64,000 bases of DNA. Origin: Bryobacteraceae bacterium. GTDB taxonomy: Bacteria > Acidobacteriota > Terriglobia > Bryobacterales > Bryobacteraceae. How positions within the stretch are numbered: position 1 is the first letter of the stretch; each line of letters begins with the position of its first letter. The stretch spans positions 21,087 to 85,086 of the forward strand of contig DASREJ010000239.1 of the NCBI GenBank assembly GCA_035652115.1, written 5' to 3'. The notes below the pieces were generated by a model. That model was not told where the DNA came from. It searched no databases and saw nothing but the letters and a program-made list of their open reading frames with translations. Positions 17,342 to 51,143 of the stretch are shown here, in pieces. A program made the position numbers and the translations under genes.

Positions 17342-17423
17342 AGGATTAGCCTAGAACGTGCACAACGGGTGTCAACGCCCAGTGCACTCTCTGTTGTATT
17401 ACAAAAACAGGCGGCCCGAGTAA

Positions 17424-19477: not shown

Positions 19478-20211
19478 AATGTCTGTCCTTTGGAACGCGT
19501 GTCCGTATTGGTAACGCGCACTTTAAATAAAAGTCCTTGGTTTTCGATGCGCTGGCGCAGTCCGGCAACATCTTCGGAAGAAAGCCGGCTCGGGCTGTTG
19601 GCTAGATCGACAAAAACACGTTCCAAATCGTCGAGCAGCGCCGCATGCGCTTGATCTCCCGAACGGAAAGCGCTTTCGCGCAATAGGCGATTTTCTTCTA
19701 ACAGATCGCGCGCACGGGCGCGTTGGTCGCCAAGACCAGCATCACCGGGGTTCGAATTCAACAATTGGACCAGCAGGATTTCCGAACGGTCCAGATGGTC
19801 GCCTAACGCCGCCAGCAAGATGCGCTGACGGTCCTTCTCCGAGATTCCAGTCACCGGTTGCGTACCGGCAATAATCTGCTGCGTGGCGCCCGTTTGATGC
19901 CTTTGAACAGTCAGCATGCCGCCCACAAACGCGGCGACTAGCAGTGTTAGAGCAGCGGGAACCAACACCCAGGAACGAGTCCACCAACGCGTTTTTCGAA
20001 TCGGCAGGCGCGGCTCTAACCGAGCCCACACTTCACGGCCGTAGCCTTCGCCGCGGGACGGAATCGGCACATCCCGAACGCCATCTAGCAACTCCGACAG
20101 ACGCGCAAGCTGATCGCGGCATTCGGCGCATTCATCTAAGTGTTCCCGGCAAGCCGATGGTGCATCGTTGTAATAAGCGTCAATCAATTCTTGTTCAGTT
20201 AGATGAGTCAT
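19474..20211 (-). CDS. anti-sigma factor (zf-HC2-like N-terminus, single transmembrane helix)
   Basis: HLDECAECRDQLARL is a zinc-finger-like motif. There is one transmembrane segment (WVLVPAALTLLVAAFVGGML). An ATGA overlap joins it to the ECF sigma gene upstream. Confidence 0.75.
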   Translation of the reverse strand: MTHLTEQELIDAYYNDAPSACREHLDECAECRDQLARLSELLDGVRDVPIPSRGEGYGREVWARLEPRLPIRKTRWWTRSWVLVPAALTLLVAAFVGGMLTVQRHQTGATQQIIAGTQPVTGISEKDRQRILLAALGDHLDRSEILLVQLLNSNPGDAGLGDQRARARDLLEENRLLRESAFRSGDQAHAALLDDLERVFVDLANSPSRLSSEDVAGLRQRIENQGLLFKVRVTNTDTRSKGQTL

Positions 20212-20786
20212 TTGGCGGCACTCCGAACCGGCTCCAACTCACGTCGCAGCTTCTGAACTGCACGGAACACGGTGTGTTTGGCGGCATTTGCGTGAACACC
20301 TAAGGTGCAAGCGATCTGCTCGATATCGCAACCTTCGTAATGGCGAAGAATAAAGGCGGTTCGTTCCATATCGCTGAGCTTCTTGAGCGCCGGCTCCAAC
20401 ATGCTCGCGATCTGGCCGCTCTGCGTCAGCCGTTCCGGGTTCGGGCCGGGTGCGGCGACACGATCAAGCCAGTGCATCGACTCGTCATCATTCACAAACG
20501 GCTGGTGTTCGTTCCGGTTCTTTTTGACCCTCAGAAGATCGAGCGAGCAGTTCGAGCAGATCCGATACAACCAGGTACTGAACGCGGCGCGGCCGTCAAA
20601 CCTGGCGATTTGCTTGTAGGCTCGAAGGAAAGTTTCCTGAACCAGGTCCTCGGCATCTTGTTCGTTCGCAGTCATACGGTAGGCGAGACGGAACAGGGCG
20701 TGGCTGTGCCGCTCTACTAAGACACGAAAGGCGTATTGATTTCCCTTCCGGGCCTCGTCGGCAGCGGCCGCATCGGTCCATTCCAT
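20208..20786 (-). CDS. ECF-type RNA polymerase sigma factor (sigma-70 group 4)
   Basis: 192 aa. Region 2 is DAEDLVQETFLRAYKQIARFDGRAAFSTWLYRICSNCSLDLLR. Region 4 is the helix-turn-helix LSDMERTAFILRHYEGCDIEQIACTLGVHANAAKHTVFRAVQKLR. Confidence 0.92.
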   Translation of the reverse strand: MEWTDAAAADEARKGNQYAFRVLVERHSHALFRLAYRMTANEQDAEDLVQETFLRAYKQIARFDGRAAFSTWLYRICSNCSLDLLRVKKNRNEHQPFVNDDESMHWLDRVAAPGPNPERLTQSGQIASMLEPALKKLSDMERTAFILRHYEGCDIEQIACTLGVHANAAKHTVFRAVQKLRRELEPVRSAAK

Positions 20787-20828
20787 CCGGCAGTCCTTAG
20801 ACTCGAAAGTTATTTACCGGTTAGGTTG

Positions 20829-20846
20829 AAAAACTGCAAATTGCAG
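20829..20846 (-). terminator. weak hairpin plus T5 downstream of the GH57 gene
   Basis: On the minus strand it reads CTGCA-ATT-TGCAG followed by TTTTT, 12 nt after the GH57 stop. The stem is only 5 bp. Confidence 0.3.
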
Positions 20847-20857
20847 CTATAGCTAAG

Positions 20858-23278
20858 TTATTGCACGCGAAGGGATAGTAGATCGCTAAGTCCCAGGTAG
20901 GCGTCGACCCAAAGTTGCGCTTTGGTGTCGCCCCGTTGCGCTTTTCGTTTCGTGCGCTGGTAGAGACCGCTCTGGATTGCATAGACATGATTCTGAGCCG
21001 ACCAGAGATTGATCGCAAACGGCATTTGCTTAACGATCTTCAGCGTACCCGTCAAGTCGTTCAGCTTCTCTAGACTGGACGGGTCGCCTGCAAAACGCGC
21101 GGAAAGACTGTCGATCTTCCGGCGCAATAGGAACTCTAAAGTAGTCTTGTCGAGAGTAATATTGCTCCCTTGTGCTTCGCGCAGTAAATTCCGAATGCGC
21201 TCGCCGTCTAGTTCGTCGTTTGAACACGCGCGGCGCAGCAAACTGTTGATTGCGTATTCGACCGCCGCCGCGAATTCGCGCGGCATCGGCGTGCCTAAAC
21301 TGGTGATGAATCTCATCAGTGCGGCGTGGTGTTCATACAACTGCAGATAAGCCGATTCTGCTTCCGCCACCGTGGACGACAAAATAGTGCGGACGATGCG
21401 GCGCTGCTCATCGCGGAAAAGCGAACGAAGCGAATATGTTTTCTCGCCGAAGCGGCGATCTAACAGCCGCACTACCTCGGGAATATCGACACGAGCAAAC
21501 GATTCGCTGATCGACTCGAGCATCTCTTTATAGCTGCCGTCGCCATCGTCTTTGCGTACGCCACCCGCGACGTTGTGGTCTCCGAAGTGGACAACCCAGA
21601 ACGTGAGCACTTCAGACTGCTGCGTGATTTTTGACGTGAAATCCGCCTGACCGATTGCCATGCGCAACTTGCCTGCGTCACCGGTGTGGTAGTCAAGGCG
21701 TTTCACCGTGTACGAGAAGATATCGGTGCGCTCGCCATACGGCGAAAAGAGGGAGCTAATGGAATAATGCGCCCCCACCTTTTCGAGATCGACAATTGCA
21801 GGTTTAACGTACTTGCGGTAAATGGCGGCCCCGTCACCGTATTCGGCCAAATTACTCTTCGCCGCAGAAAGACGTTCCATGAAGTCGGGTTCGATGGGTT
21901 GACCGAAGATCTCCTCGGCGAGCTGGACTACGCGGCCGGCGTATTGAATGACTTGAACCGTTTCGATGCCCGAGAGTTCGTCGAAAAACCAGCCGCAGCT
22001 CGTATACATGAGCATGGCATGGCGCTGCAACTCCATGAGTTTCCAGACCAGTACTTGCTCGTTCTGATCCAGCTTTCGCGCAAAGTGCTCGCTGCCGAAA
22101 CGCAGACGCACGTCCGGCGACCGATCCAACACGATGGAGATATAGGCGTCCCGAGCGGCCCAAGGATCCTTAAGCAACGTAGCGCCAAGTTTTTCGAACC
22201 GATCCGCCACCGTATCCCGCAGCCAGTCAAGCGCATCGCGCAGCGGCTTGCGCCATTGCTGATTCCATCCAGCCCGTCCTGAGTTGCAGCCGCAGTTGCT
22301 GCGCCATCGCTCCACGCCGTGCATGCAACTCCACGCCGTGTTTTCGAAGATCTGCACCTCATGCGTCGGGGGCTGCTTCGAAAGAAACTCGCCGTAGTTG
22401 GTGATCTTGTAGCTTTTCTTATTCTCGATATAGTCGAGAGCATAAGCCAAGGCCATTTCGCCGTGCTTATGATGATGCCCGTATGTTTCGCCGTCGGTAG
22501 CAATGTGCGCAAGTTGCGGCCAACTGCGCGTGTCGGAAAAAGCGGCGACAAGGCGCGTCGCAAATTTTTCGCCGTTGTCCAGCAACTTCTCAAACGCTAC
22601 TGCTTGCGAAATCGGCCCGTCATAGAAGAACAAGTTAATCGTTAGGCCGCTCGGTGTGCGAAGAAGATAAGCGCGGCTGGGGTCGATTTTTGAGCCGCTG
22701 ACATCCTGCCACGATTCCTTTCCGATCTCGCGCACCGCTTTCGCTTGATGGGGCGCCAAAATTGTGAACGACAGTCCGGCCTGCGCCATCAGGTCCAGTG
22801 TTTCCAGATCGACAGCCGTTTCCGGCAGCCACATGCCTTCCGGCAAACGCCCGAAGCGGTTAACGAAGTCTTCGAAGCCCCACCGCACTTGCGTTTTCTT
22901 GTCGCGGCTATTTGCCAGCGGCATAATCATGTGGTTGTAGGCTTGCGCCAAAGCCGAACCGTGGCCTGAGAATAGCTTTTGGCTTTGGCGGTCCGCTTCG
23001 ATAATTCCCTTGTATGTTTCGGCTGAATGCTCTGCCGCCCATGAGAGAAGCGTTGGGCCGAAATTGAAACTTATGCGCGAATAGTTGTTGACAATGCGCG
23101 TGATCCGCTGCTGGTCATCCAGAATGCGAGCCGCCAGATTCGGCGCGTAGCACTCTGCGGTGATGCGTTCGTTCCAGTCGTGATAGGGATACGCCGAATC
23201 TTGCACCTCTATCTGTTCAAGCCACGGATTTTCTCGCGGAGGCTGATAAAAGTGGCAATGAATACAGAGATAATTCAT
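20858..23278 (-). CDS. glycoside hydrolase family 57 protein with a DUF3536-like C-terminal region
   Basis: 806 aa. N-terminus is MNYLCIHCHFYQPPRENPWLEQIEVQDSAYPYHDWNERITAECYAPN, and the ATDGETYGHHH motif is characteristic of GH57 alpha-glucan enzymes. Confidence 0.85.
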   Translation of the reverse strand: MNYLCIHCHFYQPPRENPWLEQIEVQDSAYPYHDWNERITAECYAPNLAARILDDQQRITRIVNNYSRISFNFGPTLLSWAAEHSAETYKGIIEADRQSQKLFSGHGSALAQAYNHMIMPLANSRDKKTQVRWGFEDFVNRFGRLPEGMWLPETAVDLETLDLMAQAGLSFTILAPHQAKAVREIGKESWQDVSGSKIDPSRAYLLRTPSGLTINLFFYDGPISQAVAFEKLLDNGEKFATRLVAAFSDTRSWPQLAHIATDGETYGHHHKHGEMALAYALDYIENKKSYKITNYGEFLSKQPPTHEVQIFENTAWSCMHGVERWRSNCGCNSGRAGWNQQWRKPLRDALDWLRDTVADRFEKLGATLLKDPWAARDAYISIVLDRSPDVRLRFGSEHFARKLDQNEQVLVWKLMELQRHAMLMYTSCGWFFDELSGIETVQVIQYAGRVVQLAEEIFGQPIEPDFMERLSAAKSNLAEYGDGAAIYRKYVKPAIVDLEKVGAHYSISSLFSPYGERTDIFSYTVKRLDYHTGDAGKLRMAIGQADFTSKITQQSEVLTFWVVHFGDHNVAGGVRKDDGDGSYKEMLESISESFARVDIPEVVRLLDRRFGEKTYSLRSLFRDEQRRIVRTILSSTVAEAESAYLQLYEHHAALMRFITSLGTPMPREFAAAVEYAINSLLRRACSNDELDGERIRNLLREAQGSNITLDKTTLEFLLRRKIDSLSARFAGDPSSLEKLNDLTGTLKIVKQMPFAINLWSAQNHVYAIQSGLYQRTKRKAQRGDTKAQLWVDAYLGLSDLLSLRVQ

Positions 23279-24012: not shown

Positions 24013-25305
24013 CTACCGAGCTATACGGCGGAGAACACCAAAGAATTCAGGATAGGACACCGAGGCAGCTTCCGCATTCTGGATGTTGCAGACGCCGTCA
24101 GCGGCAAGCGCGGCAACGGCGAATGCCATAGCAATGCGGTGGTCGCCGCAAGAATCCAGTTCAGCGGCTCGAAACTTCTGTCCGCCGGGAACGGCAAATC
24201 CGTCTTCAGCGGTTTCGATTGTTACTCCCATTCGGTGCAGGTTCTCAGCAATTGTAGCGATTCTATCCGTTTCTTTCACGCGCAGTTCGGAGGCATTGCG
24301 CACGATCAATCCATTTTTGCTGACAGCGCCAAGTACCGCCAGCGCCGGGATCTCATCGATAAGCGCAGCAGTCGTTGCGCCTTCGATTACGCCGCCGGTA
24401 ATGTTGGAACCGCGAACCTGCAAATTGCCAATCAATTCTCCGTTGACTTGTTCGATATGGAGAAGCTTGATGGAAGCGCCCATAGAACGAAGAAAATCTA
24501 GTAACGCCGTGCGCGTCGGATTCAGACCAACGTCGGTGATGATCAGATCGGAATCCGGAACAACCAGCGCGGCGACCAGAAAGAATGTCGCTGAGGAGAT
24601 ATCGCCGGGGACAACCAGAGATTTACCCGAAAGAGTGGCTCCGCCTCGAACCTTTATGATGCGCCGTTCGCTGGTGATATCAGCGCCCAGTTCGGTAAGC
24701 GCGATTTCGGTGTGATCGCGCGTAACGGTCGGCTCGCGAACGACCGTTTCGCCATCTGCATAAAGGCCAGCCAGCAGAACGCAGCTCTTAACCTGGGCGC
24801 TGGCTACGGGCATCTCATAATCGATGGCGCGCAGTTTGGTTCCAGCAATCACCAGCGGCGGATACTGACCGTTCTTTGCTTCAATATGAGCGCCCATTGC
24901 GGAAAGTGGCTTCATAATGCGAGCCATGGGTCGCCGCGCGAGAGAGTCGTCGCCGGCAATGGTCGTCGTAAACGGCTGTGCTGACAAAATGCCGGATAGC
25001 ATGCGAATCGTTGAGCCGGAGTTACCCGCATCCAGATCTTGCTTGGAAGCTTGCAGGCCATTCAAGCCTCGGCCATGTACCGTCAGTACGCGCCGGCCAT
25101 CGTTTTCAGAAAAGTCATGTGCGATGCCAAGCTCGCGCATGCACGCAAGTGTCGAATGACAATCTGCGCCGGTGGCAAAGTTGTAGATTTGGGAATTGCC
25201 TTTGGCTATCGCGGTCAACATTGCATAGCGATGTGAAATGGACTTGTCGCCCGGCGGAGTAACGACGCCGTGAAGACTTCGTGCCGGCGAGACTAGCTCG
25301 GTCAT
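24013..25305 (-). CDS. aroA: 3-phosphoshikimate 1-carboxyvinyltransferase (EPSP synthase)
   Basis: 430 aa. Motifs PGDKSISHRYAMLTAIAKG, GNSGSTIRML, RVKETDRI and GDHRIAMAFAVAAL. Confidence 0.95.
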   Translation of the reverse strand: MTELVSPARSLHGVVTPPGDKSISHRYAMLTAIAKGNSQIYNFATGADCHSTLACMRELGIAHDFSENDGRRVLTVHGRGLNGLQASKQDLDAGNSGSTIRMLSGILSAQPFTTTIAGDDSLARRPMARIMKPLSAMGAHIEAKNGQYPPLVIAGTKLRAIDYEMPVASAQVKSCVLLAGLYADGETVVREPTVTRDHTEIALTELGADITSERRIIKVRGGATLSGKSLVVPGDISSATFFLVAALVVPDSDLIITDVGLNPTRTALLDFLRSMGASIKLLHIEQVNGELIGNLQVRGSNITGGVIEGATTAALIDEIPALAVLGAVSKNGLIVRNASELRVKETDRIATIAENLHRMGVTIETAEDGFAVPGGQKFRAAELDSCGDHRIAMAFAVAALAADGVCNIQNAEAASVSYPEFFGVLRRIAR

Positions 25306-25362
25306 GGAACTCGTATTGTAGCGTCGGGCCGTAGCGCGTCCGCAGAGGAGCCGCTGTTCGCG

Positions 25363-26754
25363 CTATTGTTGCCAGCCGCCGCCGAGCGCGTTATAAAGTT
25401 GCACCAGCGAAAGGCGTTCGTTCAACCGGGCCTGCACGAGCGTCAGCTCCGCCGAAAAGTAATTCGTCTGGTTTGTCAGCACTTCCAGGTAGCTGGTGAC
25501 GCCGCCTTTGTAGCGCACATCCGAGAGAGTGGCTGCGTCTTCGGCGTAATGAGCAAGCGCTTCCAGGTGCTCGCGATATTGGCGGTATTTCCGATAAGCG
25601 ATCAAGGCGTTGGAAACATCGCCGAAGGCGCGCTGAATCGTTTGCTTATAGCTCAGCACCATCTGTTGTTGTTGCGCTTCGGCGAGGCGTACATTGCCGC
25701 GCAGCCTGCCTCCCTCGAAGATCGGCTGCACCGCAGCGGCGCTGAAGTTCCAGACGCCGGAGGATAGAGTGAATAAATTGTGGAGTCCGATGCTTTCAAA
25801 CCCGCCACTGCCGGTGAGTGAAATTTGCGGAAAAAGCTCGGCCTTCGCCACGCCAATTTGCGCATTCGCGGCAATAAGCTGCTGTTCGGCCTCACGAATG
25901 TCTGGCCGTCGCTCCAGCAATGCAGACGGCAGGCCGGCTGGGACGACTGGCGGGACCGCCTCTTCGGTGAGTTTGCGCCCTCGGGAAATTTCGGCCGGAT
26001 TCTCGCCCAGCAGAATGCTGATGCTGTTTTCCTGTTGTCCGATCTCGCGTTCAGTGTCGGGAATCGTAGCGGCCGCGGTTTCGACTAGTTGTTGGGCCTG
26101 TCGCACATCTTCGAGCGATGCCGCGCCGCCGTTTTCTAAGGTTTCTGTCAACTTCAGAGATTCCTGCCGCGACGCCAGTGTTTGCCGCGCGATGTCCAGC
26201 GCAAGATCGAACGCTCGTAGTTGGAAATAGGCAGCGGCGACACTCGAAACTACAGTGCTCATGACCGCACGGCGGTTCCATTCGGCGCCCAATAAGTTAG
26301 CCCTGGCGGCCTCCGTCGCTCTACGATACTGACCCCAAAAATCGGGAACCCAGGAAGCCGATATCGTCAGTGCCGGCGCGACGTACTGATAACCCTGGAA
26401 CACACCAGGAATGGAAGGCGACCGAATGCCGCTGATGGCGGGACCGCCGCTAACGGTGGGAAATTCGCTCGCCCGCGTAATCGAAAGCTGAGCCTGCTCC
26501 TGCAGCACTCGATTGGCGGCAATTTGCAAATTGTAGTTCTGCGCGAGCGCTGTACGAATCAGCTTCTGCAGTTCTTCGTCGCCAAAGACGGTCCACCATT
26601 TTTCGTCGCCCAGCGATTGTGCGGTCTCCGGTTGCGACGGCGCACGATAGGTTGCGGGCACATCTACCGCCGGCCGCTTATAGTTCGGTCCCATCGTGCA
26701 GCTTGAAAGAGATAGTCCGGCAACTAACGCGACAGCGGCACATGCTCCTTTCAT
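25363..26754 (-). CDS. RND efflux outer-membrane factor lipoprotein (NodT family)
   Basis: 463 aa with lipobox LSLSSC. Carries the duplicated OEP-type helical repeats, and the C-terminal ALGGGWQ is typical of the family. An ATGA overlap joins it to the RND pump gene. Confidence 0.9.
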
Positions 26755-29700
26755 GCGTGTGCTCCCGGTTCGCCTACCGGCTCTGTCTCGCGAGGCCTGT
26801 TCTTGCCTTTAACACGGTGCGATAATCTCTCCACCACATCGAAGGAAACCGGAATGATAAACACTTCGATCAAGGTTGCGGCCAGCATGCCCCCGATCAC
26901 CGCGGTTCCTAAGATCTGCCGCGAGACCGCGCCAGACCCGGAAGCTCTCCAGAGCGGAACGCATCCCAGAATGAACGCAAAGGCTGTCATAAGAATAGGC
27001 CGCAGGCGGATGCGGGCACCCGTGAGTGCCGCTTCTTCAATGCTCTTGCCGCGCTCTTCATACTCTTTTTTGGCGAACTCGACGATCAGGATCGCGTTCT
27101 TTGCCGCCAACCCGATAAGCATGACCACGCCAATCTGCGCATAAACATCGTTGTCGAAATGCCGCGACCACAGAAATATATACGCTCCGAACAGGGCGAT
27201 CGGGGTGCCGAGAAGCACACTGAATGGCAGCGACCAACTTTCATACTGCGCCGACAAAATAAGAAAAACGAAGATGAAAGATAGGCCGAAAACTACACTG
27301 GTGGGTACACCTTTAGCTGCTTTTTGCTCCTGATACGACATGCCCATGTAGTCGAAGCCCATCTGGCTCGGCATGGTCTGTGCAAATACTTCTTCTAGTG
27401 CCTGCATCGCCTGTCCCGAACTGTATCCCGGCGCTGCGGCGGCAATGATCTGGGCAGCTTCGTATTCGTTGTAGCGCATCGCGAACTCGGGCCCGTTCGT
27501 CGGCTCCATGGAAGCCACAGCGTTCAGCGGCACCATCGTGTTTTGGTTGTTCGAAACATAAAACTGCCGCAGATCGTCTGCGCGCGTGCGGAAATTTCCT
27601 TCGGCTTCGACATAAACCTGCCACTGTCTGCCAAAGCGATTGAAGTAATTAACCAGGTATCCGCCCAGAAACGTCTGCAGCGTCTGGTAAACGTCGGAGA
27701 CGTTGACGCCTTGCCTTTCCACCTTTGCGCGATCGACATTCACATACTGCTGCGGGACACTCGGCAGGAATGTGGTTGTAAGGCCGGCCAGTTCTTTCCG
27801 CTTCCGCGCAGCAGCAACAAACTTTTCAACATTTGAAGCAAGGAACTGAAGCGAGCTGCCTGACCGGTCTTCAAGCACGAATGTGACGCCGCCCGATGTT
27901 CCGACGCCGGGAATTGAAGGAGGCGTAAACGAAAACCCGATGCCGTCTTGGACTTTCGCTAGTTCGGTCGAAATGTGATTGCGGATTGCAGTGTAACTTT
28001 CGTTGTCGCCGTGACGTTCACTCCAGGGCTTCTCGGTGACGAAGAAGAATGCGCTATAGGTGTCCTGGACGCGGCTTAGCAGGCTGAATCCGATTACGGA
28101 GGTGCAGCCTGCCACGCCGGGAGTGTTCATGATGACCTTCTCTACCTGCTGTGCTGCCGCTGACGTGCGTTGCAGGGAAGCCGCATTGGGCAATTGCAAA
28201 GCGACGAACACATAGCCCTGATCTTCCTCCGGCAGAAATGACGAAGGCAGCCGTTTGTTGATGAAAAATGCGACGACGGCAATCCCCGCAAGTAGTAACA
28301 GCGCGAATGCCGCTTTATGAATCAGAGCTCTTGAAACGCGAATGTAGCCCGCGTTGGCGTGGCCGAACATGCGATTGAACCAATCGAAAAATCGCCGCAG
28401 CCAGCCGCGCGATTTCTTCTTCGGCTTTAACAGCATTGCCGCCAATGCCGGGCTCAGTGAAAGAGCATTGAAAGCGGAAAAAATAACTGAGATCGCAATT
28501 GTGACGGCAAACTGCTGATATAGACGTCCAGTAATTCCCGGAATAAACACCGTGGGGACAAAGACGGCCGTCAGGATCAGAGCCGTCGCGATCACCGGTC
28601 CCGAAACCTCTTCCATGGCGCGGAAGGCGGCATCCCGCGGCGCCATGCCTTCTTCGATATGCCGTTCGACCGCTTCCACCACGACAATCGCGTCGTCGAC
28701 AACCAAACCGATCGCGAGCACCAGTCCGAAGAGCGACAGTGTATTGATGGAAAACCCCAGAAGCGGAAAGACGACGAACGTGCCAATCAGTGAAACGGGT
28801 ACTGCTGCCAGCGGAATGAGCGTTGCGCGCCAGCCTTGCAGAAAGATGTAGACCACCAAAATGACCAACGCTAACGCCTGTAACAGCGTGCGCACGATCT
28901 CCTCAATTCCGGACGTTACCGCCCGTGTTGTATCCAGGCTGACTTGATACGAGAGATCCTGCGGGAAACGTTTGGCCAACTGCGCCATCTGCGCTTGCAC
29001 GGCTTTCGCCGCATCCACGGCATTTGAGCCAGGCAGTTGATAAACGGCCAGAATTGCCGAAGGATTTCCGTTGTAGCGGCCGGTCAGATTGTAAGTTTGC
29101 GACCCGAGTTCAAGCCGGGCCACATCTTTAAGCCGCAGCGTAGACCCGTCCGGGTTTGCGCGCAGGATAATGTCGCCAAACTGTTCGGTCGATGTCAGGC
29201 GGCCCTGAGCTTGCACGGAGTACGTGAACTGCTGTCCGTCGGGTGCCGGTTCAGCGCCCAGTTGTCCGGCGGGGTTCACCGCATTCTGCGCGTTAAGTGC
29301 CGAGATGATCTGTGGAACCGTTACGCCTGTTGACGCCAGGCGATCTGGGTTGACCCAGCAGCGCATCGCATACTGGCCTGCGCCGAACACTTGCACACGC
29401 GCCACGCCCGGAACGCGCGTGAGCTGATCCACCAGATTGATGTATCCGTAGTTCGCCAGGAAAATGCTGTTATACGTCCCGTGTGGCGAATAGAGCGCGA
29501 TCAGCAACAGCGGTGACGAGAGCGACTTCTGGATGGTTAATCCGGCTGCGTTGACCTGCGCCGGAAGCTGCGACTGCGCCTGTGCGGTGCGTAGTTGTGT
29601 CAACACCTGATCGATATTCGGATCGGTGCTCACATCGAAATCGACGGTGATCTGCGATTGCCCGTTGTTGGCGTTGATCGAATACATGTAGTTCATGTTG

Positions 29701-29918
29701 TCGACGCCGCTGATCTGCGCCTCAAGCGGCGTTGCGACAGATTGTTCCAGAGTTTGGGCGTTTGCTCCGGGATAGATCGCCGTGACCAGAATCTCGGGTG
29801 GAACGATTGCCGGAAACTGCGAGATCGGCAACCGTAACATGGAGATCACGCCGACCAGAACCATCAGGATCGCGATCACAATCGCAACAATCGGGCGATT
29901 GATGAAGAACTTAGACAT
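26751..29918 (-). CDS. RND multidrug efflux permease (AcrB/HAE1-like)
   Basis: 1055 aa. N-terminus is [23 protein letters not shown]. It has 12 predicted transmembrane helices and two large periplasmic loops. Confidence 0.95.
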
Positions 29919-29920
29919 CG

Positions 29921-31141
29921 TTACTGTCCTTTGCCTCTCGTTCCGTAAGGAGATATCGGTTTTGCTTGACTCGGTTGTGGAGTCACCACCTCTCCGTTCC
30001 TAACCTTCGAAGTTCCTTCGGCTATGATGCGCTGGCCGGCAGTGAGGCCGCTGTCGATTACCCAGAGATTCTGATACTTATCTCCGACTTGAACGTCGAC
30101 GATCTTGACCGTATTGCCGGGTTGGACCACCGCAACCTGATAACGACCTTGAATTTCGGTGACCGCTTGCTGCGGAACAAGCAGCGCGTTTTCGTTCATA
30201 GCGGTTAAGGCCCGAATTCGACCGAACTGGCCGGGCCGGAGGATGTTGCCGGGATTTGCAAATGCGCCGATGATCCGGATTGTGCCGGTCTGCGTGTTCA
30301 CACTTCGATCGGCAAACAAAATTCGTCCCTTCTGCTCATAAACTTTGTTATTAGCCAAAGTAAGTTGAATCGGGACTGAATTCTTGGCGCCGAGCAGGTC
30401 CATAGATTGGGAACCCGGCATCCTTGTTTTAATTCGGTTAGCAAGACTCAAGTACTCTTGCTCGCTGATAGAAAAGTAAACCTTGATCGGATTCACCTGG
30501 GAGATCATGGTCAGCACGGTGCTCGGATTGACCAGATTGCCGATCTGTGTCGCAGCAATCCCGGCTATTCCATCCACGAGCGACCGAACGTTCGTGAAGC
30601 CCAGGTTCAACTCGGCTGTTTCCACACTCGCTTCCGCCGCCTTGATGGATGCCTGGTTGGTTTGTATCAGAGCTTCGTTCTGCTTTTCAGTCTGGATGTC
30701 GTTATCAAGCTGGCTCTGCGCGATCGCATGAGCTTGCGCAAGCGGTGTGTCGCGCTTCACATTGATGCGAGCTAATCCAAGCTGCGCTTGCGCCTGTGCC
30801 AGTTGCCCGTTGGCCTGCGCGAGTTGCCCCTTAGCCTGATCGAGCGCCGCTTGGAAGGGGCGCGGATCGATCTCAAAGAGTACGTCTCCTTTGTGAACGA
30901 ATGAGCCCTCGCGATAGTTCTGCTTAACGAGATAACCGGTGACTTGAGGCTGGATATTGGCGTTTATATATCCATCAAGGCTTGCCACCCAATTGCCATA
31001 GATGGGAACGTTCTGCTGGATCACGGTGACAACTCCTACGGGTGGCGGCGCAGGTTTCGGCGGCGCCTCCGATTTGCCAGCGCAACTAATCAACAGCAGT
31101 AACGCGCTTACCAGCGGGAGAGCTACAAAGACGTTCCTCAA
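29921..31141 (-). CDS. RND efflux periplasmic adaptor (membrane fusion protein) lipoprotein
   Basis: HlyD/AcrA-like coiled-coil region ([20 protein letters not shown]). The track start is TTG 31165. An in-frame TTG at 31139..31141 overlaps the TetR stop (TTGA) and gives a clean lipoprotein signal, (M)[19 protein letters not shown]. Confidence 0.88.
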
Positions 31142-31752
31142 GAAATTCCTCTGTTCAGATAGCAATTCAAGATGAATTTAAATTCCTGTACGATGTGGGG
31201 TTTCTCGCTACGTTTGGCGTCCTTATAGAGGACCAACATTCCGTTCACGAGTTTTAGCGATACCGCCGCCATGCGCAGAGCTTTCGCATTTGACATGCGC
31301 GGCTTGCGCAAAAGAAAAAACCTGGCCATCAACTGGCAAAAACGTTTTCGAATTTCCCCCGAATGGTGATGGGCCGGCGGTGCGTCTAACAGCGCCAGAA
31401 ATGCCGGATGTTCGTTTGCGAACTGGATAGTCAGGTCAAGCAGACGATCCACGAACGTATCCAGATTCAGAGTGCTCGACCGGTCGAACAAAGGCTGCCA
31501 AAGTTCCTCGATTTGCTGCGAGTACTTGGTGCGAAGCGCCCGTGTGACGGCTTCTTTATTGGGAAAGAATTGATAAAGCGAGCCGACGGCTGCGCCCGCG
31601 CGCTCGGCGATTTCGCTCATGGTGGTCGCGTCATAGCCGAATTCGGCTAGGACGGAAGCGGCCGCATCCAGCAATCCCGCTACTCTGCGTTCACCGCGAT
31701 GCTGGCGCGGAATGCGCCTTTGCACCGCCACGAAACGTGACGACACCCTCAC
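31138..31752 (-). CDS. TetR family transcriptional regulator
   Basis: Helix-turn-helix region LLDAAASVLAEFGYDATTMSEIAERAGAAVGSLYQFFPNKEAV. It sits directly upstream of the RND operon. Confidence 0.85.
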   Translation of the reverse strand: MRVSSRFVAVQRRIPRQHRGERRVAGLLDAAASVLAEFGYDATTMSEIAERAGAAVGSLYQFFPNKEAVTRALRTKYSQQIEELWQPLFDRSSTLNLDTFVDRLLDLTIQFANEHPAFLALLDAPPAHHHSGEIRKRFCQLMARFFLLRKPRMSNAKALRMAAVSLKLVNGMLVLYKDAKRSEKPHIVQEFKFILNCYLNRGIS

Positions 31753-32215: not shown

Positions 32216-33350
32216 ATGACTCTGGAAGAACTGGAAAGAGAGTACGTTACGCTCCGGCAGCAAGGTGAAGCTGTGCGGAGCTATCTTTGACGCCCCTGCC
32301 AAGCAACAAGAGCTAACAAAGCTCGAAGTCGAAATCGGCGATCCCGATTTTTGGAACCAGCCCGAAAAGAGCCAGCGCGTCATGCAGCAGCGCAAGCGGC
32401 TGGAAGAAGCAATTCAAAATTCTGAATCGGTTGTTTCTGCCACTTCCGATATAGACACGCTTTTCGAACTCGCGCGAGAAGGCGAGAACGTGAACGGCGA
32501 CCTGGAACGCGAGATAAGAACGTTCCAGAACAGATTGGAGGAGCTGGAGACCGGCATGTTGCTCTCCGGCGAAAACGATAAGCGCGACGCGATTATCACG
32601 ATCCACCCCGGCGCCGGCGGCACCGAAAGTCAGGATTGGGCGGAGATGCTGCTTCGCATGTATCTGCGCTGGGCGGAGCGCCACAAATTCGACGCAGTGA
32701 TTACAGACCGGCTGGAAGGCGAAGGCGCGGGCATTAAATCGGCCACTGTCGAAGTCAATGGCGAGAATGTCTACGGCCAGTTGCAATCGGAGGTTGGCGT
32801 CCATCGCCTGGTGCGCATTTCGCCGTTCGACGCCAACGCCCGGCGCCACACGTCGTTTGCGTCCGTTTTTGTTTATCCGCAAATTGAAGACGACATCAAT
32901 ATTGAGATCAAGCCGGAAGATCTGAAGATCGATGTCTTTCGCGCGAGCGGAGCCGGCGGTCAGCACGTGAACCGGACTGAATCGGCTGTGCGCTTTACGC
33001 ACCTACCCACCGGCATCGTGGTTCAGTGCCAGAACGAGCGTTCCCAGCACAAAAACCGTGCCAGCGCTATGAAGCAGTTGCGGGCCAAGCTCTATGAGTA
33101 CGAGATGGAAAAGAAGCGCGCCGCGGATGCCAAGCTGGAAGAAACTAAGCTGGAGATCAACTTCGGCAATCAGATTCGCAGCTATGTGCTGGCTCCTTAC
33201 CGCATGATTAAGGATCATCGCACCAAGCTTTCGATTGGCGATGTCGACCGTGTGCTCGACGGGGACATCGACTCCCTGATTCACGCGTATTTGGTCTGGC
33301 GCAAGACGGGCAAAACAGCCGGCGACAGTAAAGAGGATCTGCCCGAGTAA
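32216..33350 (+). CDS. prfB: peptide chain release factor 2, requires a +1 programmed frameshift at 32287/32289
   Basis: Frame 0 reads MTLEELEREYVTLRQQGEAVRSYL then TGA. Frame +1 continues DAPAKQQELTKLEVEIGDPDFWN and carries the SPF and GGQ motifs (RISPFDANARRHTSFASV, ASGAGGQHVNRTESAVR). The ORF track splits this gene into 32105..32290 and 32265..33350. Confidence 0.92.
32277..32291 (+). promoter_or_regulatory. prfB +1 frameshift site (SD-like GGAG, slippery CTT, TGA, C)
   Basis: The sequence is GGAG-CTAT-CTT-TGA-C. The E. coli prfB site is AGGGGG-TAT-CTT-TGA-C. Confidence 0.88.
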
Positions 33351-33359
33351 TCCGTCCTG

Positions 33360-34271
33360 ATGGTTGTTCAACCGAACGAAGAAGCGCTTGATCGGGCAGC
33401 GCGGTTGATTCAGAGCGGCGCGCTCGTCGCTTTTCCAACGGAAACGGTTTATGGGTTGGGCGCCAATGCGCTGGATGAAGAGGCGATTGCGCGCATCTAC
33501 GCCGTAAAGAGCCGCCCTTGGGCTAGTCCTCTGATTGTGCACGTGGCCGATGAAGCAATGGCCCGCTCTGTGACCATCGAATGGCCGCATATAGCGCAGG
33601 TGCTCGCGGCGCGATTCTGGCCGGGGCCGTTGACGATGGTTCTGAAGAAAGCGGCGGCTATTCCTGGCCTCGTTACGGCGGGCCTTGATACGGTCGGCAT
33701 CCGAATTCCATCTCACCCAATCGCCCTGGCGCTGATTCGGCGCGCCGGAGTTCCCATTGCGGCCCCCAGCGCGAATCGCTTTACACAACTTTCCCCTACC
33801 ACCGCGGAGCACGTACAGCAGGGATTGGGCGAAGACATCGATTTAATTCTGGATGGCGGACCCACTCAGGTGGGAATCGAATCGACTGTCGTGTCATTGT
33901 GGCGAGACCCGCCTGTCATTCTGCGACCCGGCATGATTTCGCAAACGGATTTGGAAGCCGTCAGCGGAATCGGGTGGGAACGTGAAACAGACCTGCCGAA
34001 GATTGTCGAATCGCCAGGAATGCATGTCCGCCACTACGCACCGCGCACTCCGTTCCACGTGTTGGAACCGGGCGCCGCGAAGCCTGCTGGGCGTGGACGT
34101 CTAATCGAAATGCCATCCGATCCAAAAGCTTTTGCGGCCTGCCTCTACGCGGAACTGCACAAAGCCGACCAGGAAGGGTGGGAGTGGATTGCGATCGCGA
34201 AACCGCCGGAAACACCCGAGTGGGCAGGCGTTTTGGACCGGCTCAAAAGAGCCAGCGCCGCTGACGAGTAG
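33360..34271 (+). CDS. tsaC: L-threonylcarbamoyladenylate synthase (Sua5/YwlC/TsaC family, long form)
   Basis: 303 aa. Carries the YrdC-domain motifs ALVAFPTETVYGLGANALDEEAIARIYAVKSRP and APSANRF, plus a Sua5-type C-terminal extension. Confidence 0.88.
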   Translation: MVVQPNEEALDRAARLIQSGALVAFPTETVYGLGANALDEEAIARIYAVKSRPWASPLIVHVADEAMARSVTIEWPHIAQVLAARFWPGPLTMVLKKAAAIPGLVTAGLDTVGIRIPSHPIALALIRRAGVPIAAPSANRFTQLSPTTAEHVQQGLGEDIDLILDGGPTQVGIESTVVSLWRDPPVILRPGMISQTDLEAVSGIGWERETDLPKIVESPGMHVRHYAPRTPFHVLEPGAAKPAGRGRLIEMPSDPKAFAACLYAELHKADQEGWEWIAIAKPPETPEWAGVLDRLKRASAADE

Positions 34272-38934: not shown

Positions 38935-40401
38935 TTACGGCAGCAACTCCAGCACAGCATCGCTGGGTTCCAATTCCTCTGCATGCGGCGGTAAAGTTGC
39001 GCCAGCTTCTAAAAGCGCCCGAATGGTTTCGACGAAATTTCCTGTGTCGCGGTGCCAGCCGTTGCCGGATCCGTAAACGGCCCACGAAAGCGCGGTTCCT
39101 GGGTATTCTCTCGATTTCAGCGCCAAGTCCGGATCAAACCGCAGGATCTCGCGTGTCATCTCGACATTGCCGTTGAAGCCGGCCCAGTGTAGCGCGGTCG
39201 CTCCCATCTCGCCAGCGGTATTCACGGGCCAACCTGCCTCCAACATCAACCGCACCGCTTTCGTGTTGTTATTCTGCGCCGCATTGGGCAGCTTCTGCTT
39301 CTCCTGTTCAGACAACGCGCTGGCCGCCTCCGGATGTTTTGAAAGAAATTCGTGAAATACGGCATCATCGCCCAATTCGCAGGCCAGCGCCAGCTTCAAC
39401 TCATTCGGCGTTCGCTCCATGAGTAATTGGAACACCTGTTCGTGACCGAAGTCGCGTGCGACCGTGTGCGCGGTGCGGTATCTCCCGAGTGTCCAGATGT
39501 AAATCGTGCCGCCTGCTCGTGGATTCTGCCTCGGGAACCATTCGTCCGATACCGTCATCCCGATACACGCCGGATCGGCATCCAAATGGCGGCGGACCAG
39601 GCCAGCGTCACCTAATGCTGCGGCCATCAAGATGTCCGTCTTGCATCCACGAGACACCAGGAAACGAGCTACATCCTGCCGATCCGTCGGATAGTGCCGC
39701 TTCTGCATAACACGCAGCATATATTGGGCCGGGGTTGACTCATGATCCACGTCGCGCGCGTCGATTTCAGCTCCGTTTCCCAGAAGAAAATTGGCAATTT
39801 CCATCGTCGAGGCAAAGTGCAGCGGAGTTTGCCCATCTCCACCCTTTGCATGCACCACGCCCGGATCAGCGGCGACCAGATCTTGCAGCTTCGACATCAT
39901 ATCCAAGCGGGCTGCCGCATGGGCGTCGATGATAGCGCCACGTTCAACAAGAAACGGGACTAAGCCGGGATCGCAGTCGTCCAACACTCCGAAGCCGCCC
40001 GCCCACCATTCAGTGCGTTTATTGATTTCGGCCCCCGCCCGCAAAAGCAAGTCGATGGTTTTCCGGTCGCTACGCTGTACGGCTGCGAACAATGCCTGTT
40101 GGCCGAAACCATAATTAGGCAATGGATCGTTAATCTTCGTCCGCAATTCCGGATATCGATCGAGAAGTTCTTGAACACGGTTTGCATCACTGTCGCAGAC
40201 CGCCGCCTTCAGCGCTTCTGCCGACGTGAGCCCCAACAATTCAATGTGGGATTTCAGCTTCGCCCAGGTAGCAAAACCGTATTCGTTTGCTAACACGCGT
40301 TGCGCATCGGTCAATTTATCCGCCTTGCCGCTGCGCAGCAGTTGCTTGGCTTGTTTCTTTAAATATTGAAGATTTGGGTTTTCAGGTAACTGACGAGACA
40401 T
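38935..40401 (-). CDS. ankyrin-repeat protein
   Basis: 488 aa with multiple canonical ANK units, for example GQTPLHFASTMEIANFLLGNGAEIDARD and GATALHWAGFNGNVEMTREIL. There is no signal peptide. Confidence 0.8.
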   Translation of the reverse strand: MSRQLPENPNLQYLKKQAKQLLRSGKADKLTDAQRVLANEYGFATWAKLKSHIELLGLTSAEALKAAVCDSDANRVQELLDRYPELRTKINDPLPNYGFGQQALFAAVQRSDRKTIDLLLRAGAEINKRTEWWAGGFGVLDDCDPGLVPFLVERGAIIDAHAAARLDMMSKLQDLVAADPGVVHAKGGDGQTPLHFASTMEIANFLLGNGAEIDARDVDHESTPAQYMLRVMQKRHYPTDRQDVARFLVSRGCKTDILMAAALGDAGLVRRHLDADPACIGMTVSDEWFPRQNPRAGGTIYIWTLGRYRTAHTVARDFGHEQVFQLLMERTPNELKLALACELGDDAVFHEFLSKHPEAASALSEQEKQKLPNAAQNNNTKAVRLMLEAGWPVNTAGEMGATALHWAGFNGNVEMTREILRFDPDLALKSREYPGTALSWAVYGSGNGWHRDTGNFVETIRALLEAGATLPPHAEELEPSDAVLELLP

Positions 40402-49910: not shown

Positions 49911-51143
49911 ATGTTTCGCAAGTCGCTCCTCGGCCTCATCGGTTGTCTTCTGCTTTCCTTCCTGCTTCTCGCCTATCCTCTATATGTCCTTCGCCCGTTT
50001 CGCTATCAAGGTCCGCGTGAGCTGAGCGCGGCGCTCGCCGTCATGCGTCTCAGACCGTTTCTCGAAGTGATTCTGGTTATTACTGCCCTGATGTTTTTAA
50101 TTTGGGTTTGGCGCACGACACCGCGCATCTCGCGCAAGATCGTCGCCTTGCTCTGCTTCCTGGCCGTTGCTTCCTGCGGAGTGCTATCTCGTGTGAACGT
50201 TTACGAATTGCTGTTTCATCCATTGGACAAGCCCAGCTTTTCTCCCGCGCCAAAAACGAGCTTGGATGGCCGCGAGCAAGTGATCGCGATCAACGTCAAC
50301 GGCGCCGCCCGAGCCTACCCCATCCGAATCATCTCCTACCATCACCTCGTTAACGATGTAGTCGGCGGCGTGCCCATCATCGCGACGTATTGAACGCTCT
50401 GTCACACCGGTCTGGTGTTTCAAAGAACTGTCGAAGGGGTTCCGCTCAATTTCCATCTGGCTGGCATAAACAACCAGAATTTCCTCATGCGAGATGAGCA
50501 AACGGGAACGTATTGGCAGCAGATTACCGGACTTGCCGTGGCGGGGCCGCTCGCTGGTCATCGCCTCACGCTTGTCGCGGCCGACGAACTTACGTTTGCG
50601 CTTTGGAAATCGGAACGGCCCGAAGGTACCGTGTTGAACGATGTTAGCCGCTATGTGCACGACTATGCTCCCGAAGACTGGGATGTAAAAATGGCCAGCA
50701 CTCCCACCGTCATAAGCTACGCGCAAGCGGGTCTCAAACCACGTGATCTGATGTTGGGCGTGCGGGCTTTTGGCGCTAGCCGTGCATTCCCCTATGCGGC
50801 GGTTCTTAAACAGAAGTTGATTGAAGATCATGTGAGCGGTGAACCCGTCCTGCTTGTGGTCGGCCCCGACAATCTGTCCGTTCGTGTCTTTCGACGTCGG
50901 CTGCCCGGATCGGCAACACCAGAGTTCTATCGCATTCCCGAGGCCAAGGAACAATCGCAATCTGGAGTTCTACTACTAGACGCGCAGAGCGGCAGCAGGT
51001 GGAATTTCCACGGATGCGCCATTGACGGCAAATTCAAAGGAGTTTGTCTTGAACCTCTCCAAGTAATAAAGGATTACTGGTTCGATTGGCGCAACTACAA
51101 TCCGCAGACCACTGTATACGGCATCAAACAACAAATTCACTGA
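49911..51143 (+). CDS. membrane-anchored DUF3179-family protein with one in-frame TGA at 50391..50393 (candidate selenocysteine codon; otherwise a pseudogene)
   Basis: ORFs 49911..50393 and 50415..51143 are in the same frame and separated only by the TGA. The joined product reads ...ARAYPIRIISYHHLVNDVVGGVPIIATY-[TGA]-TLCHTGLVFQRTVEG... This matches my memory of the DUF3179 core (..AYP...L..HE(I/V)VND.(V/I)GG.P(V/I)..TYCPLC.(S/T)G..(F/Y)..). Confidence 0.6.
50396..50428 (+). promoter_or_regulatory. candidate bacterial SECIS-like stem-loop
   Basis: The upper stem is ACACC (50404..50408) paired with GGTGT (50414..50418), closing the loop GGTCT, which begins 16 nt after the TGA. A possible lower stem pairs G50396, T50398, C50399, T50400 and G50401 with C50428, A50426, G50425, A50422 and C50421, across an internal loop. 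The loop resembles the GGUC-containing apical loop of E. coli fdhF SECIS (from memory). Confidence 0.4.

What the first reader, a model, noticed from the sequence alone, without database searches (positions are those of the whole stretch)
50379..50405. In-frame TGA at the first Cys position of the DUF3179 CxxC motif: candidate new selenoprotein
The two ORF-track entries 49911..50393 and 50415..51143 share one frame and are separated only by the TGA at 50391..50393. Read through, the sequence is VGGVPIIATY-[TGA]-TLCHTGLVF. As I remember the DUF3179 family core, it reads ..GG.P(V/I)..TYCPLC.(S/T)G.., so the TGA falls exactly on the first Cys and would give a UxxC redox-type motif. Cys/Sec replacement at a conserved CxxC is the classic signature of bacterial selenoproteins. 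The joined 410-aa protein keeps three N-terminal transmembrane helices and an intact domain with no other lesion. The alternative GTG start at 50415 would delete the motif. I do not recall DUF3179 among described selenoprotein families. The gene sits beside Mn catalase and a ferritin-like stress protein, a plausible redox context.
Basis: partly seen in the sequence, partly recalled or inferred. Interest (0 to 1): 0.7.

Follow-up and report, generated by a model that had tools for sequence, protein, structure and literature searches.

The report
Known selenoprotein family, mis-split gene
The in-frame TGA is real and almost certainly encodes selenocysteine in a membrane-anchored DUF3179 protein, but DUF3179 is already catalogued as a selenoprotein family, so this is a well-supported new member and not a new family.

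Summary
TGA at 50391-50393 joins ORFs 49911-50393 and 50415-51143 into one 410-codon DUF3179 gene (Pfam 209 bits). The TGA sits on the first Cys of the family-invariant CxxC.

Evidence for Sec decoding is strong:
- All 80 orthologues fetched from other species (53-68% identity) carry TGA at the same column and are otherwise intact.
- The 16 nt at 50403-50418 (CAC ACC GGT CTG GTG T) are invariant in 81/81 TGA-form genes, including five synonymous sites. In 61 distinct Cys-form genes the same amino acids use freely varying codons.
- This block folds into a 5-7 bp hairpin with a GGUCU loop, a minimal bacterial SECIS.
- TGA is otherwise a normal stop in this window.
- One orthologue locus has a bona fide tRNA-Sec about 180 nt from the gene.

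The novelty claim fails. Two reviews (2022, 2026) list DUF3179/PF11376 as a selenoprotein family with motif UxxC/T, and RefSeq uses the name "DUF3179 domain-containing (seleno)protein".

The Mn-catalase/DUF892 neighbourhood is real but is not conserved in any of the 80 relatives.

Sec machinery in the source genome could not be tested. Function remains unknown. A confident model of a Cys homologue shows three TM helices plus a duplicated all-beta domain with weak Rieske-like similarity.

The parts
49911..51143 (+). Complete DUF3179 selenoprotein gene: 410 codons plus stop, with Sec at codon 161
   Evidence: Orthologues are intact on both sides of the TGA, and pN/pS is 0.2-0.5 in both halves.
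49911..50192 (+). N-terminal membrane anchor with three hydrophobic helices (about residues 5-27, 49-67, 77-94)
   Evidence: Kyte-Doolittle scan. The AF2 model of Cys homologue P0010 has helices at 2-37, 46-77 and 84-103.
50223..51110 (+). DUF3179 domain (residues 105-400), made of two homologous repeats of about 95 residues
   Evidence: Pfam PF11376, 209.5 bits. hhalign of the two halves gives probability 98.3%, E 1.8e-14.
50340..50342 (+). Codon for His144, the only His invariant across the wider family, 16 residues before the Sec
   Evidence: Alignment A4 with members at 23-31% identity.
50388..50390 (+). TAT (Tyr160) immediately 5' of the UGA
   Evidence: TAT in 81/81 TGA-form genes, against TAC 41 / TAT 20 in Cys-form genes.
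50391..50393 (+). UGA read as selenocysteine (U161), the first position of the U-T-L-C motif
   Evidence: TGA in 80/80 orthologous loci. TGC/TGT in 80/80 Cys-form loci.
50400..50402 (+). TGT codon for Cys164, the second residue of the UxxC motif
   Evidence: Invariant Cys in all alignments.
50403..50418 (+). 16-nt block CACACCGGTCTGGTGT, invariant at every position, containing the SECIS apical hairpin: stem 50404-50408 / 50414-50418 and loop GGUCU at 50409-50413
   Evidence: 81/81 invariant, including 5 synonymous sites. The hairpin is in the MFE fold of 81/81. 0/61 Cys-form genes have the block. It occurs once in the window.
50397..50425 (+). Whole predicted SECIS stem-loop in this window, including a weak lower stem (C7-G35, U8-A34, U10-A32, G11-C31, numbered from the U of UGA)
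   Evidence: MFE fold. The lower stem pairs only partly across orthologues and shows no clean covariation.
50415..50417 (+). GTG (Val169), which ORF callers use as a false start for the truncated 242-aa product
   Evidence: Database entries of about 240 aa at 67-81% identity are truncated calls of this kind.
51141..51143 (+). The gene's own terminal stop, also TGA
   Evidence: It shows that UGA is not generally reassigned.

Best explanation
49911-51143 is a single gene for a 410-residue, membrane-anchored DUF3179 selenoprotein. During translation, UGA161 (50391-50393) is recoded to selenocysteine by the standard bacterial route (Sec-tRNA-Sec delivered by SelB). The guide is a minimal SECIS hairpin inside the coding sequence: stem ACACC/GGUGU with apical loop GGUCU at 50404-50418, with 15 nt between the A of UGA and the first loop base. 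The product carries U161-T-L-C164 in place of the family-invariant CxxC, with invariant His144 sixteen residues upstream.

Shown: this is one reading frame; the UGA is conserved; there is an RNA-level constraint on the hairpin; and the Sec/Cys pair falls at an invariant column.

Inferred: SelB/tRNA-Sec are the decoding agents. The domain faces the periplasm, because distant homologues carry signal peptides where this protein has TM helices. The Sec acts either as the attacking residue of a selenenylsulfide redox couple with C164 or as a metal ligand together with C164 and H144.
For: (1) 80/80 orthologues from different species (53-68% identity) have TGA at this column.
(2) All 81 genes are intact, with 233-273 codons after the TGA. 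Both halves are under purifying selection (pN/pS 0.20-0.51) while synonymous sites are near saturation (pS 0.66-0.83).
(3) The three codons after the UGA (Thr, Leu, Cys) show synonymous changes only, and the next five are invariant, so the seven codons between the UGA and the GTG are translated.
(4) Nucleotides 13-28 after the U of UGA are invariant in 81/81, including five third positions, while neighbouring third positions are only 32-83% conserved.
(5) Control: 61 distinct Cys-form genes encode the same H-T-G-L-V with CAC 28 / CAT 33, all four ACN, all four GGN, five Leu codons and four Val codons. None has the block.
(6) The block forms a hairpin present in the MFE fold of 81/81. It meets published bacterial SECIS descriptions: a 5/6-bp apical hairpin a few nt after the UGA (PMC4607533), conserved G in the loop (PMC1976440), and a spacing at the short end of 16-37 nt (PMC10778597).
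(7) UGA is an ordinary stop here: 6 of 27 Pfam-supported ORFs end in TGA, including this gene.
(8) L062 has a tRNA-Sec (Rfam 72.3 bits against a gathering score of 47, anticodon UCA) about 180 nt from its TGA-form gene.
(9) Acidobacteria are documented Sec users (PMC1794560).
(10) L161 has TGC at this codon with the whole hairpin block intact, i.e. a one-base Sec-to-Cys change.
(11) The family is already catalogued as a UxxC/T selenoprotein.
Against: - No selA, selB, selC or selD was found in the 64-kb window: no tRNA, no Rfam hit, and 30 ORFs checked with Pfam. The source genome's machinery is therefore untested.
- The hairpin is supported by invariance and not by compensatory changes. The lower stem is weak in this window (total -8.3 kcal/mol, z-score not significant) and pairs inconsistently across orthologues.
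- No Rfam SECIS family matches, even at E<=10.
- The spacing to the loop is one codon shorter than in E. coli fdhF (my own knowledge of that sequence).
- There are no protein-level data.
Confidence: 0.88

Rival explanations
1. The UGA is read through, but a residue other than Sec is inserted. One route is Cys delivered by a tRNA-Sec-like tRNA-Cys (selC*-type, possibly via SelB). Another is Ser or another residue delivered by an acidobacterial allo-tRNA suppressor.
For: Mukai et al. (PMC5389517) describe allo-tRNAs in Acidobacteria that may act as nonsense suppressors, and selC* tRNA-Cys with U73 and GCA or UCA anticodons. L054 carries a tRNA-Sec-like gene (Rfam tRNA-Sec 45.5 bits) with anticodon GCA and a U discriminator about 40-70 nt upstream of its TGA-form gene.
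Against: The L054 tRNA has a GCA anticodon and cannot read UGA. It was seen in 1 of 80 loci. L062 has a canonical tRNA-Sec(UCA) next to the gene. General suppression is unlikely because UGA terminates 6/27 genes in the window, including this one. A Sec/Cys pair at an invariant CxxC followed by a SECIS-like hairpin is the classic Sec signature, and the family is already catalogued as a selenoprotein family.
Confidence: 0.05
2. There are two separate products. A 160-residue membrane protein terminates at the UGA, and a 242-residue soluble domain starts at GTG 50415 by coupling or re-initiation. The invariant block would then be a translational-coupling signal.
For: This is how gene callers annotate the locus: many database entries of about 240 aa, including NCBI entries. 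The GTG is invariant in 81/81.
Against: The seven codons between the UGA and the GTG encode T-L-C-H-T-G-L, identical to the Cys-form proteins. The only changes seen there are synonymous, so they are translated. The split would remove both residues of the family-invariant CxxC from either product. No Shine-Dalgarno-like sequence precedes the GTG (sequence). In L161 a single A-to-C change gives a continuous ORF.
Confidence: 0.03
3. The gene is a pseudogene, or the TGA is a sequencing or assembly error for TGC/TGT.
For: A single base separates TGA from TGC/TGT. One relative (L161) does read TGC.
Against: 80/80 independent assemblies from different species have TGA. No other stops or frameshifts occur. 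Purifying selection acts on both sides, and the downstream hairpin is conserved only in TGA forms.
Confidence: 0.01

Closest known systems
DUF3179 (PF11376) selenoprotein family, as listed in PMC9312934 Table (2022) and PMC13188914 (2026), credited to Zhang & Gladyshev 2007
   Same: Same Pfam family, and same Sec position and motif (UxxC, with Sec replacing the first Cys of the CxxC). Cys-containing homologues are the majority. Function is unknown.
   Different: Both reviews credit the Olavius symbiont metagenome study (Zhang & Gladyshev 2007). Here the gene belongs to a large acidobacterial (mostly Bryobacteraceae/Bryobacterales) subfamily. That subfamily has a three-helix membrane anchor, an extra His after the motif (UxxCH) and an extra C-terminal Cys pair. 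Its members are annotated in public databases as truncated proteins of about 240 aa.
E. coli fdhF-type minimal bacterial SECIS
   Same: A short apical hairpin in the coding sequence just 3' of the UGA. The loop begins GGUC, the same four bases as in the fdhF loop whose G and U contact SelB (own knowledge). A 5/6-bp apical hairpin is the common bacterial feature (PMC4607533).
   Different: The loop lies 3 nt closer to the UGA than in fdhF (own knowledge of the fdhF sequence). No bulged U is evident. In this window the lower stem is weak. No Rfam SECIS model matches.
Rieske-type [2Fe-2S] domains (e.g. PetC3 5cxm, CntA 6y9c, biphenyl dioxygenase)
   Same: These are the only consistent Foldseek hits to the confident model of the Cys homologue (probability up to 0.99; TM 0.60 normalised to the 99-residue PetC3). 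The spacing His-x16-Cys-x-x-Cys recalls the Rieske C-x-H-x15-17-C-x-x-H motif (own knowledge).
   Different: No hit reaches E<=1e-3. The four Rieske ligands (2 Cys + 2 His) are not present. There is no sequence-level match to any PDB entry.
selC* tRNA-Cys / allo-tRNAs (Mukai et al., PMC5389517)
   Same: The RNA at L054:2835-2927 has a tRNA-Sec-like shape, a U discriminator and a GCA anticodon, which is the published definition of selC* tRNA-Cys.
   Different: It was found in only one related locus and not in the window. The class was reported from Firmicutes, Thermodesulfobacteria, Nitrospirae and Proteobacteria, not from Acidobacteria. It is not needed to explain the finding.

Membership tests
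DUF3179 (PF11376) | Score above the Pfam gathering threshold over the whole domain | tested here: met
   209.5 bits against a cut-off of 27, profile positions 7-292 of 292.
DUF3179 (PF11376) | Family-invariant CxxC preceded by a conserved His/Asn segment | tested here: met
   H144, N148, C161 (here U) and C164 are invariant in alignments with members down to 23% identity.
Bacterial SECIS/SelB-dependent selenoprotein | In-frame UGA aligned with a conserved Cys in homologues | tested here: met
   TGA here, against TGC/TGT in 80/80 Cys-form loci and Cys in all protein homologues.
Bacterial SECIS/SelB-dependent selenoprotein | The UGA is conserved in orthologues that are otherwise intact and under purifying selection on both sides | tested here: met
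   80/80 have TGA. All are intact, with pN/pS 0.2-0.5.
Bacterial SECIS/SelB-dependent selenoprotein | Stem-loop immediately 3' of the UGA with G in the apical loop at the appropriate spacing | tested here: met
   Hairpin ACACC-GGUCU-GGUGU, invariant in 81/81 and absent from Cys forms. Caveats: there is no compensatory covariation, the spacing is at the short limit, and no Rfam model matches.
Bacterial SECIS/SelB-dependent selenoprotein | selA, selB, selC (tRNA-Sec) and selD present in the same genome | not testable with these tools
   None lies in the 64-kb window, and the rest of the genome is not available. Indirect evidence: tRNA-Sec lies next to the orthologue in L062, and the Sec trait is known in Acidobacteria.
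Bacterial SECIS/SelB-dependent selenoprotein | Selenium demonstrated in the protein | not testable with these tools
   This requires 75Se labelling or mass spectrometry.
Rieske [2Fe-2S] domain | Rieske fold | tested here: inconclusive
   The top Foldseek hits are all Rieske domains, but with E 0.013-0.3 and query-normalised TM about 0.16.
Rieske [2Fe-2S] domain | C-x-H ... C-x-x-H cluster ligands | tested here: not met
   Only H144 ... U/C161-x-x-C164 are conserved. The motif definition is from own knowledge.
c-type cytochrome (CXXCH heme attachment) | Conserved CXXCH motif | tested here: not met
   H165 is invariant only in the acidobacterial subfamily. In distant members that position is G, N, A or D. 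The only literature link is a bare motif scan.
Thioredoxin-fold thiol:disulfide oxidoreductase | Thioredoxin fold around the CxxC | tested here: not met
   The model is an all-beta duplicated domain. No thioredoxin-fold hits appeared in Pfam or among the listed Foldseek hits.

The most novel reading that the evidence does not exclude
In this subfamily the Sec is not a thioredoxin-style redox residue. It would instead be a ligand of an extracytoplasmic metal centre (His144 + Sec161 + Cys164, possibly with His165 and the subfamily-specific Cys369/Cys379), held in a duplicated Rieske-like beta fold on a three-helix membrane anchor. That would be a new kind of selenium-ligated metal site in an abundant group of soil bacteria.
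Probability: 0.15. Interest if true: 0.6.

Novelty: new member of a known kind. Interest (0 to 1): 0.3.

Why it matters
For annotation: this gene and at least 80 orthologues in soil and peat Acidobacteriota are called as truncated proteins of about 240 aa that lack the catalytic motif. They should be joined and marked as selenoproteins.

For biology: this is a clean natural experiment. The Sec and Cys forms share the same residues but differ sharply in synonymous-site freedom, which delimits a 16-nt minimal SECIS core. The family is widespread and has no known function, and the Sec marks its CxxC as the functional centre. None of this is a new principle.

Tried and rejected
- Rfam scan of the whole window at gathering threshold, and of 50330-50520 at E<=10: no SECIS or other family.
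- NCBIfam: no model hits the joined protein. The '(seleno)protein' name therefore appears to come from NCBI's naming of the Pfam family and not from a dedicated model.
- PDB by sequence profile: nothing at E<=1.
A 48%-identical Cys homologue was modelled instead.
- Exact-protein look-up of the window's 242-aa product: not on record, so the source genome was not identified.
- Synteny: the window's neighbours are absent from all 80 orthologous loci. The best recurrent neighbours were an unannotated ORF cluster with a TonB-dependent-receptor-like look (my own reading; 14/80) and a CMD/AhpD-like CxxC protein (11/80), in variable position and orientation. This is too weak to use.
- Compensatory covariation in the SECIS: none. 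The upper stem never varies and the lower stem is inconsistent.
- Scan of the window for other ORF pairs split by a TGA: 20 mechanical candidates, none credible other than this one.
- CXXCH heme reading: rejected as a family-wide feature.
- The single-sequence fold of 50385-50470 was not more stable than shuffles (z = +1.05). Thermodynamic stability alone would not have flagged this SECIS.

Full report
**1. Observation**

The sequence is as described. TGA at 50391-50393 lies in the frame shared by ORF 49911..50393 and ORF 50415..51143. Read-through gives ...VGGVPIIATY-[TGA]-TLCHTGLVF..., and the frame is otherwise open until the terminal stop at 51141-51143.

With Cys substituted at the stop, the 410-residue protein matches Pfam PF11376 (DUF3179) at 209.5 bits over residues 105-400. 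Three hydrophobic segments precede the domain. The neighbours are HslV/HslU upstream on the other strand, then Mn catalase, DUF892 and an SDR downstream.

**2. Is the TGA column a conserved Cys?**

Yes.
- In 70 homologues at 42-60% identity, C161, C164 and H165 are invariant.
- In five distant members at 23-31% identity (Thiothrix, Deinococcus, Pseudanabaena and two haloarchaea, taken from annotated plasmids), the invariant residues are H144, N148, C161 and C164.
- H165 and the C-terminal Cys pair (C369, C379) are specific to the acidobacterial subfamily.

**3. Is the TGA conserved?**

A scan of one genome per species returned 546 relatives. The best 80 are mostly Bryobacteraceae/Bryobacterales/Terriglobia MAGs at 53-68% identity.
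- All 80 have TGA at exactly this column, in the context ..ATY[TGA]TLCHTGLV.
- All 81 genes are intact, with at least 168 open codons before the TGA and 233-273 after it.
- Against the window gene, pN/pS is 0.31-0.51 for the N-terminal part and 0.20-0.30 for the C-terminal part. Synonymous sites are close to saturation (pS 0.66-0.83).

A pseudogene or a sequencing error is therefore excluded.

**4. One product or two?**

The seven codons between the TGA and the GTG at 50415 encode T-L-C-H-T-G-L, as in the Cys-form proteins. The only differences seen there among the 81 sequences are synonymous: ACG/ACA, CTC/CTT/CTA/CTG and TGT/TGC. These codons are therefore translated, and the split model would discard the family's invariant motif. 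The many entries of about 240 aa in protein databases, at 67-81% identity and including NCBI entries, are truncated calls of this gene form.

**5. RNA signal**

Numbering from the U of the UGA, nucleotides 13-28 (CAC ACC GGU CUG GUG U; window 50403-50418) are identical in all 81 TGA-form genes. This includes five synonymous third positions, while third positions on either side are only 32-83% conserved. The Tyr codon before the UGA is also fixed as TAT (81/81).

As a control I fetched 80 Cys-form loci from metagenomes. They carry TGC in 70 cases and TGT in 10, and give 61 distinct sequences.
- The same residues H-T-G-L-V are encoded with CAC 28 / CAT 33, all four ACN, all four GGN, five Leu codons and four Val codons.
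- Tyr is encoded with TAC 41 / TAT 20.
- None has the block.

The constraint is therefore at the RNA level and specific to the TGA form.

The block folds as ACACC-[GGUCU]-GGUGU. In the 58 sequences that have TGG next, the stem extends to 7 bp. The hairpin is in the MFE structure of 81/81. It fits published descriptions of bacterial SECIS elements:
- a stem-loop immediately 3' of the UGA (PMC9312934);
- a 5/6-bp apical hairpin resembling the minimal fdhF element (PMC4607533);
- conserved G in the apical loop (PMC1976440);
- 16-37 nt from the UGA to the loop (PMC10778597). Here 15 nt lie between the A of UGA and the first loop base, which is the short limit.

From my own knowledge, the loop begins with the same GGUC as E. 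coli fdhF and sits one codon closer to the UGA.

Weaknesses of the RNA evidence:
- The upper stem never varies, so there is no compensatory evidence.
- The lower stem pairs inconsistently.
- In this window the whole structure is only about -8 kcal/mol and no better than shuffles.
- No Rfam model matches.

**6. Is UGA otherwise a stop?**

Yes. Six of 27 Pfam-supported ORFs in the window end in TGA, including this gene. Recoding is therefore site-specific.

**7. Sec machinery**

Nothing in the window: no tRNA, no Rfam hit, and 30 ORFs checked against Pfam. The source genome could not be identified.

Indirect support:
- L062 (a Terracidiphilus-labelled MAG contig) has a tRNA-Sec (72.3 bits against a gathering score of 47, anticodon UCA) about 180 nt downstream of its TGA-form gene.
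- Acidobacteria were already counted among Sec-decoding phyla in 2006 (PMC1794560).

**8. A natural revertant**

P0002 is the Cys-form protein closest to the Sec clade. It is encoded on L161 by TAT TGC ACG CTC TGT CAC ACC GGT CTG GTG TGG, which is the complete TGA-form block with a single A-to-C change. That is either a very recent Sec-to-Cys replacement or a variant or error in that contig, whose N-terminal part is also truncated. Either way it shows the expected Sec/Cys interchange.

**9. Novelty**

DUF3179 is already catalogued.
- PMC9312934 (2022) lists 'DUF3179 domain-containing protein, pfam11376, UxxC/T'.
- PMC13188914 (2026) lists the same with PF11376.
- Both credit Zhang & Gladyshev 2007. 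The 2007 paper predates the Pfam name and does not use it.
- NCBI names Cys-form homologues in Edaphobacter, Tunturibacter and haloarchaea 'DUF3179 domain-containing (seleno)protein'.
- No paper in the searched library links Bryobacteraceae to this selenoprotein.
- No full-length Sec-form protein of this clade appeared among the best database hits.

The specific subfamily is therefore unreported and mis-annotated, but the kind is known.

**10. Function**

The context offers no help. None of the window's neighbours occurs within 3 kb of the gene in any of the 80 loci, and no other neighbour is widely conserved.

A model of the 48%-identical Cys homologue P0010 is very confident (pLDDT 95.2, pTM 0.90). 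It shows three long N-terminal helices and an all-beta domain.
- The domain is an internal duplication (hhalign 98.3%, E 1.8e-14). Only the first repeat carries the motif.
- Foldseek against the PDB finds nothing at E<=1e-3, but the top hits are consistently Rieske domains.
- Distant homologues have signal peptides in place of the membrane anchor (by inspection), so the domain is probably extracytoplasmic.
- A CXXCH heme reading was prompted by a motif-scan table in PMC9230427. It is not supported family-wide, because H165 is not conserved.

I commit to a redox-active or metal-binding centre formed by H144, U161 and C164. Within that, I rate a selenenylsulfide couple as somewhat more likely than a metal site. 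That choice is inference.

**11. Verdict**

This is a real, well-supported selenoprotein gene that gene callers split. It belongs to a selenoprotein family that is already known. Interest is modest: it is a correction to annotation, a neatly delimited minimal SECIS, and a pointer to the active site of a domain of unknown function.

Noticed in passing
L054:2835-2927 (+): A 93-nt tRNA lies about 40-70 nt upstream of that MAG's TGA-form DUF3179 gene. It matches Rfam tRNA-Sec (45.5 bits, gathering score 47, E 3.5e-8) but has anticodon GCA and a U discriminator. That is the published definition of a selC* tRNA-Cys (PMC5389517), a class not reported from Acidobacteria. It was not found in the other 79 loci or in the window.
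   Followed up: partly
L062:4363-4452 (-), also L062:493-587 (-) and L062:2326-2613: A canonical tRNA-Sec (72.3 bits, UCA) sits directly downstream of the TGA-form gene. The same short contig has a 95-nt tRNA-Tyr and a Phd/YefM antitoxin gene. This recalls the association of unusual tRNAs with toxin-antitoxin loci noted by Mukai et al..
   Followed up: partly
L161:416-1432 (protein P0002): A Cys-form gene (TGC) retains the complete SECIS block of the TGA forms, and its N-terminal membrane region is truncated. It is either a very recent Sec-to-Cys conversion or an error-bearing contig.
   Followed up: yes
window 50223-51110; P0010 residues 118-215 vs 275-372: The DUF3179 domain is an internal duplication of a module of about 95 residues (hhalign 98.3%, E 1.8e-14). 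Only the first copy keeps the His...CxxC residues.
   Followed up: yes
window 50388-50390: The Tyr codon before the UGA is TAT in 81/81 TGA-form genes, against TAC 41 / TAT 20 in Cys-form genes. This suggests a constraint on the base 5' of the recoded UGA.
   Followed up: partly
L162 (Thiothrix subterranea plasmid NZ_CP133216.1, 6264-8189): A distant DUF3179 gene lies next to a 'GDCCVxC domain-containing (seleno)protein', a DUF4395 gene and an EamA transporter. In Deinococcus deserti the homologue lies near chrA. These may hint at a link to metal handling.
   Followed up: no
window 32265-34271: A class-I peptide chain release factor (PCRF + RF-1 domains) is followed by Sua5/TsaC. Whether the release factor is RF1 or RF2 was not determined.
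   Followed up: no
window 15617-23278 and 24013-31165: There is a glucan-metabolism cluster (alpha-amylase, GH57 + DUF3536, HEAT-repeat proteins). There is also an efflux set (outer membrane efflux protein, an unscanned 1055-aa ORF, and a HlyD-like adaptor) next to EPSP synthase. An ankyrin-repeat protein lies at 38935-40401.
   Followed up: no
public protein databases (hits P0001, P0046, P0055, P0113, P0120 etc.): Orthologues of this gene are systematically deposited as proteins of about 240 aa that start at the GTG inside the SECIS hairpin. This includes NCBI entries named 'DUF3179 domain-containing protein'.
   Followed up: yes
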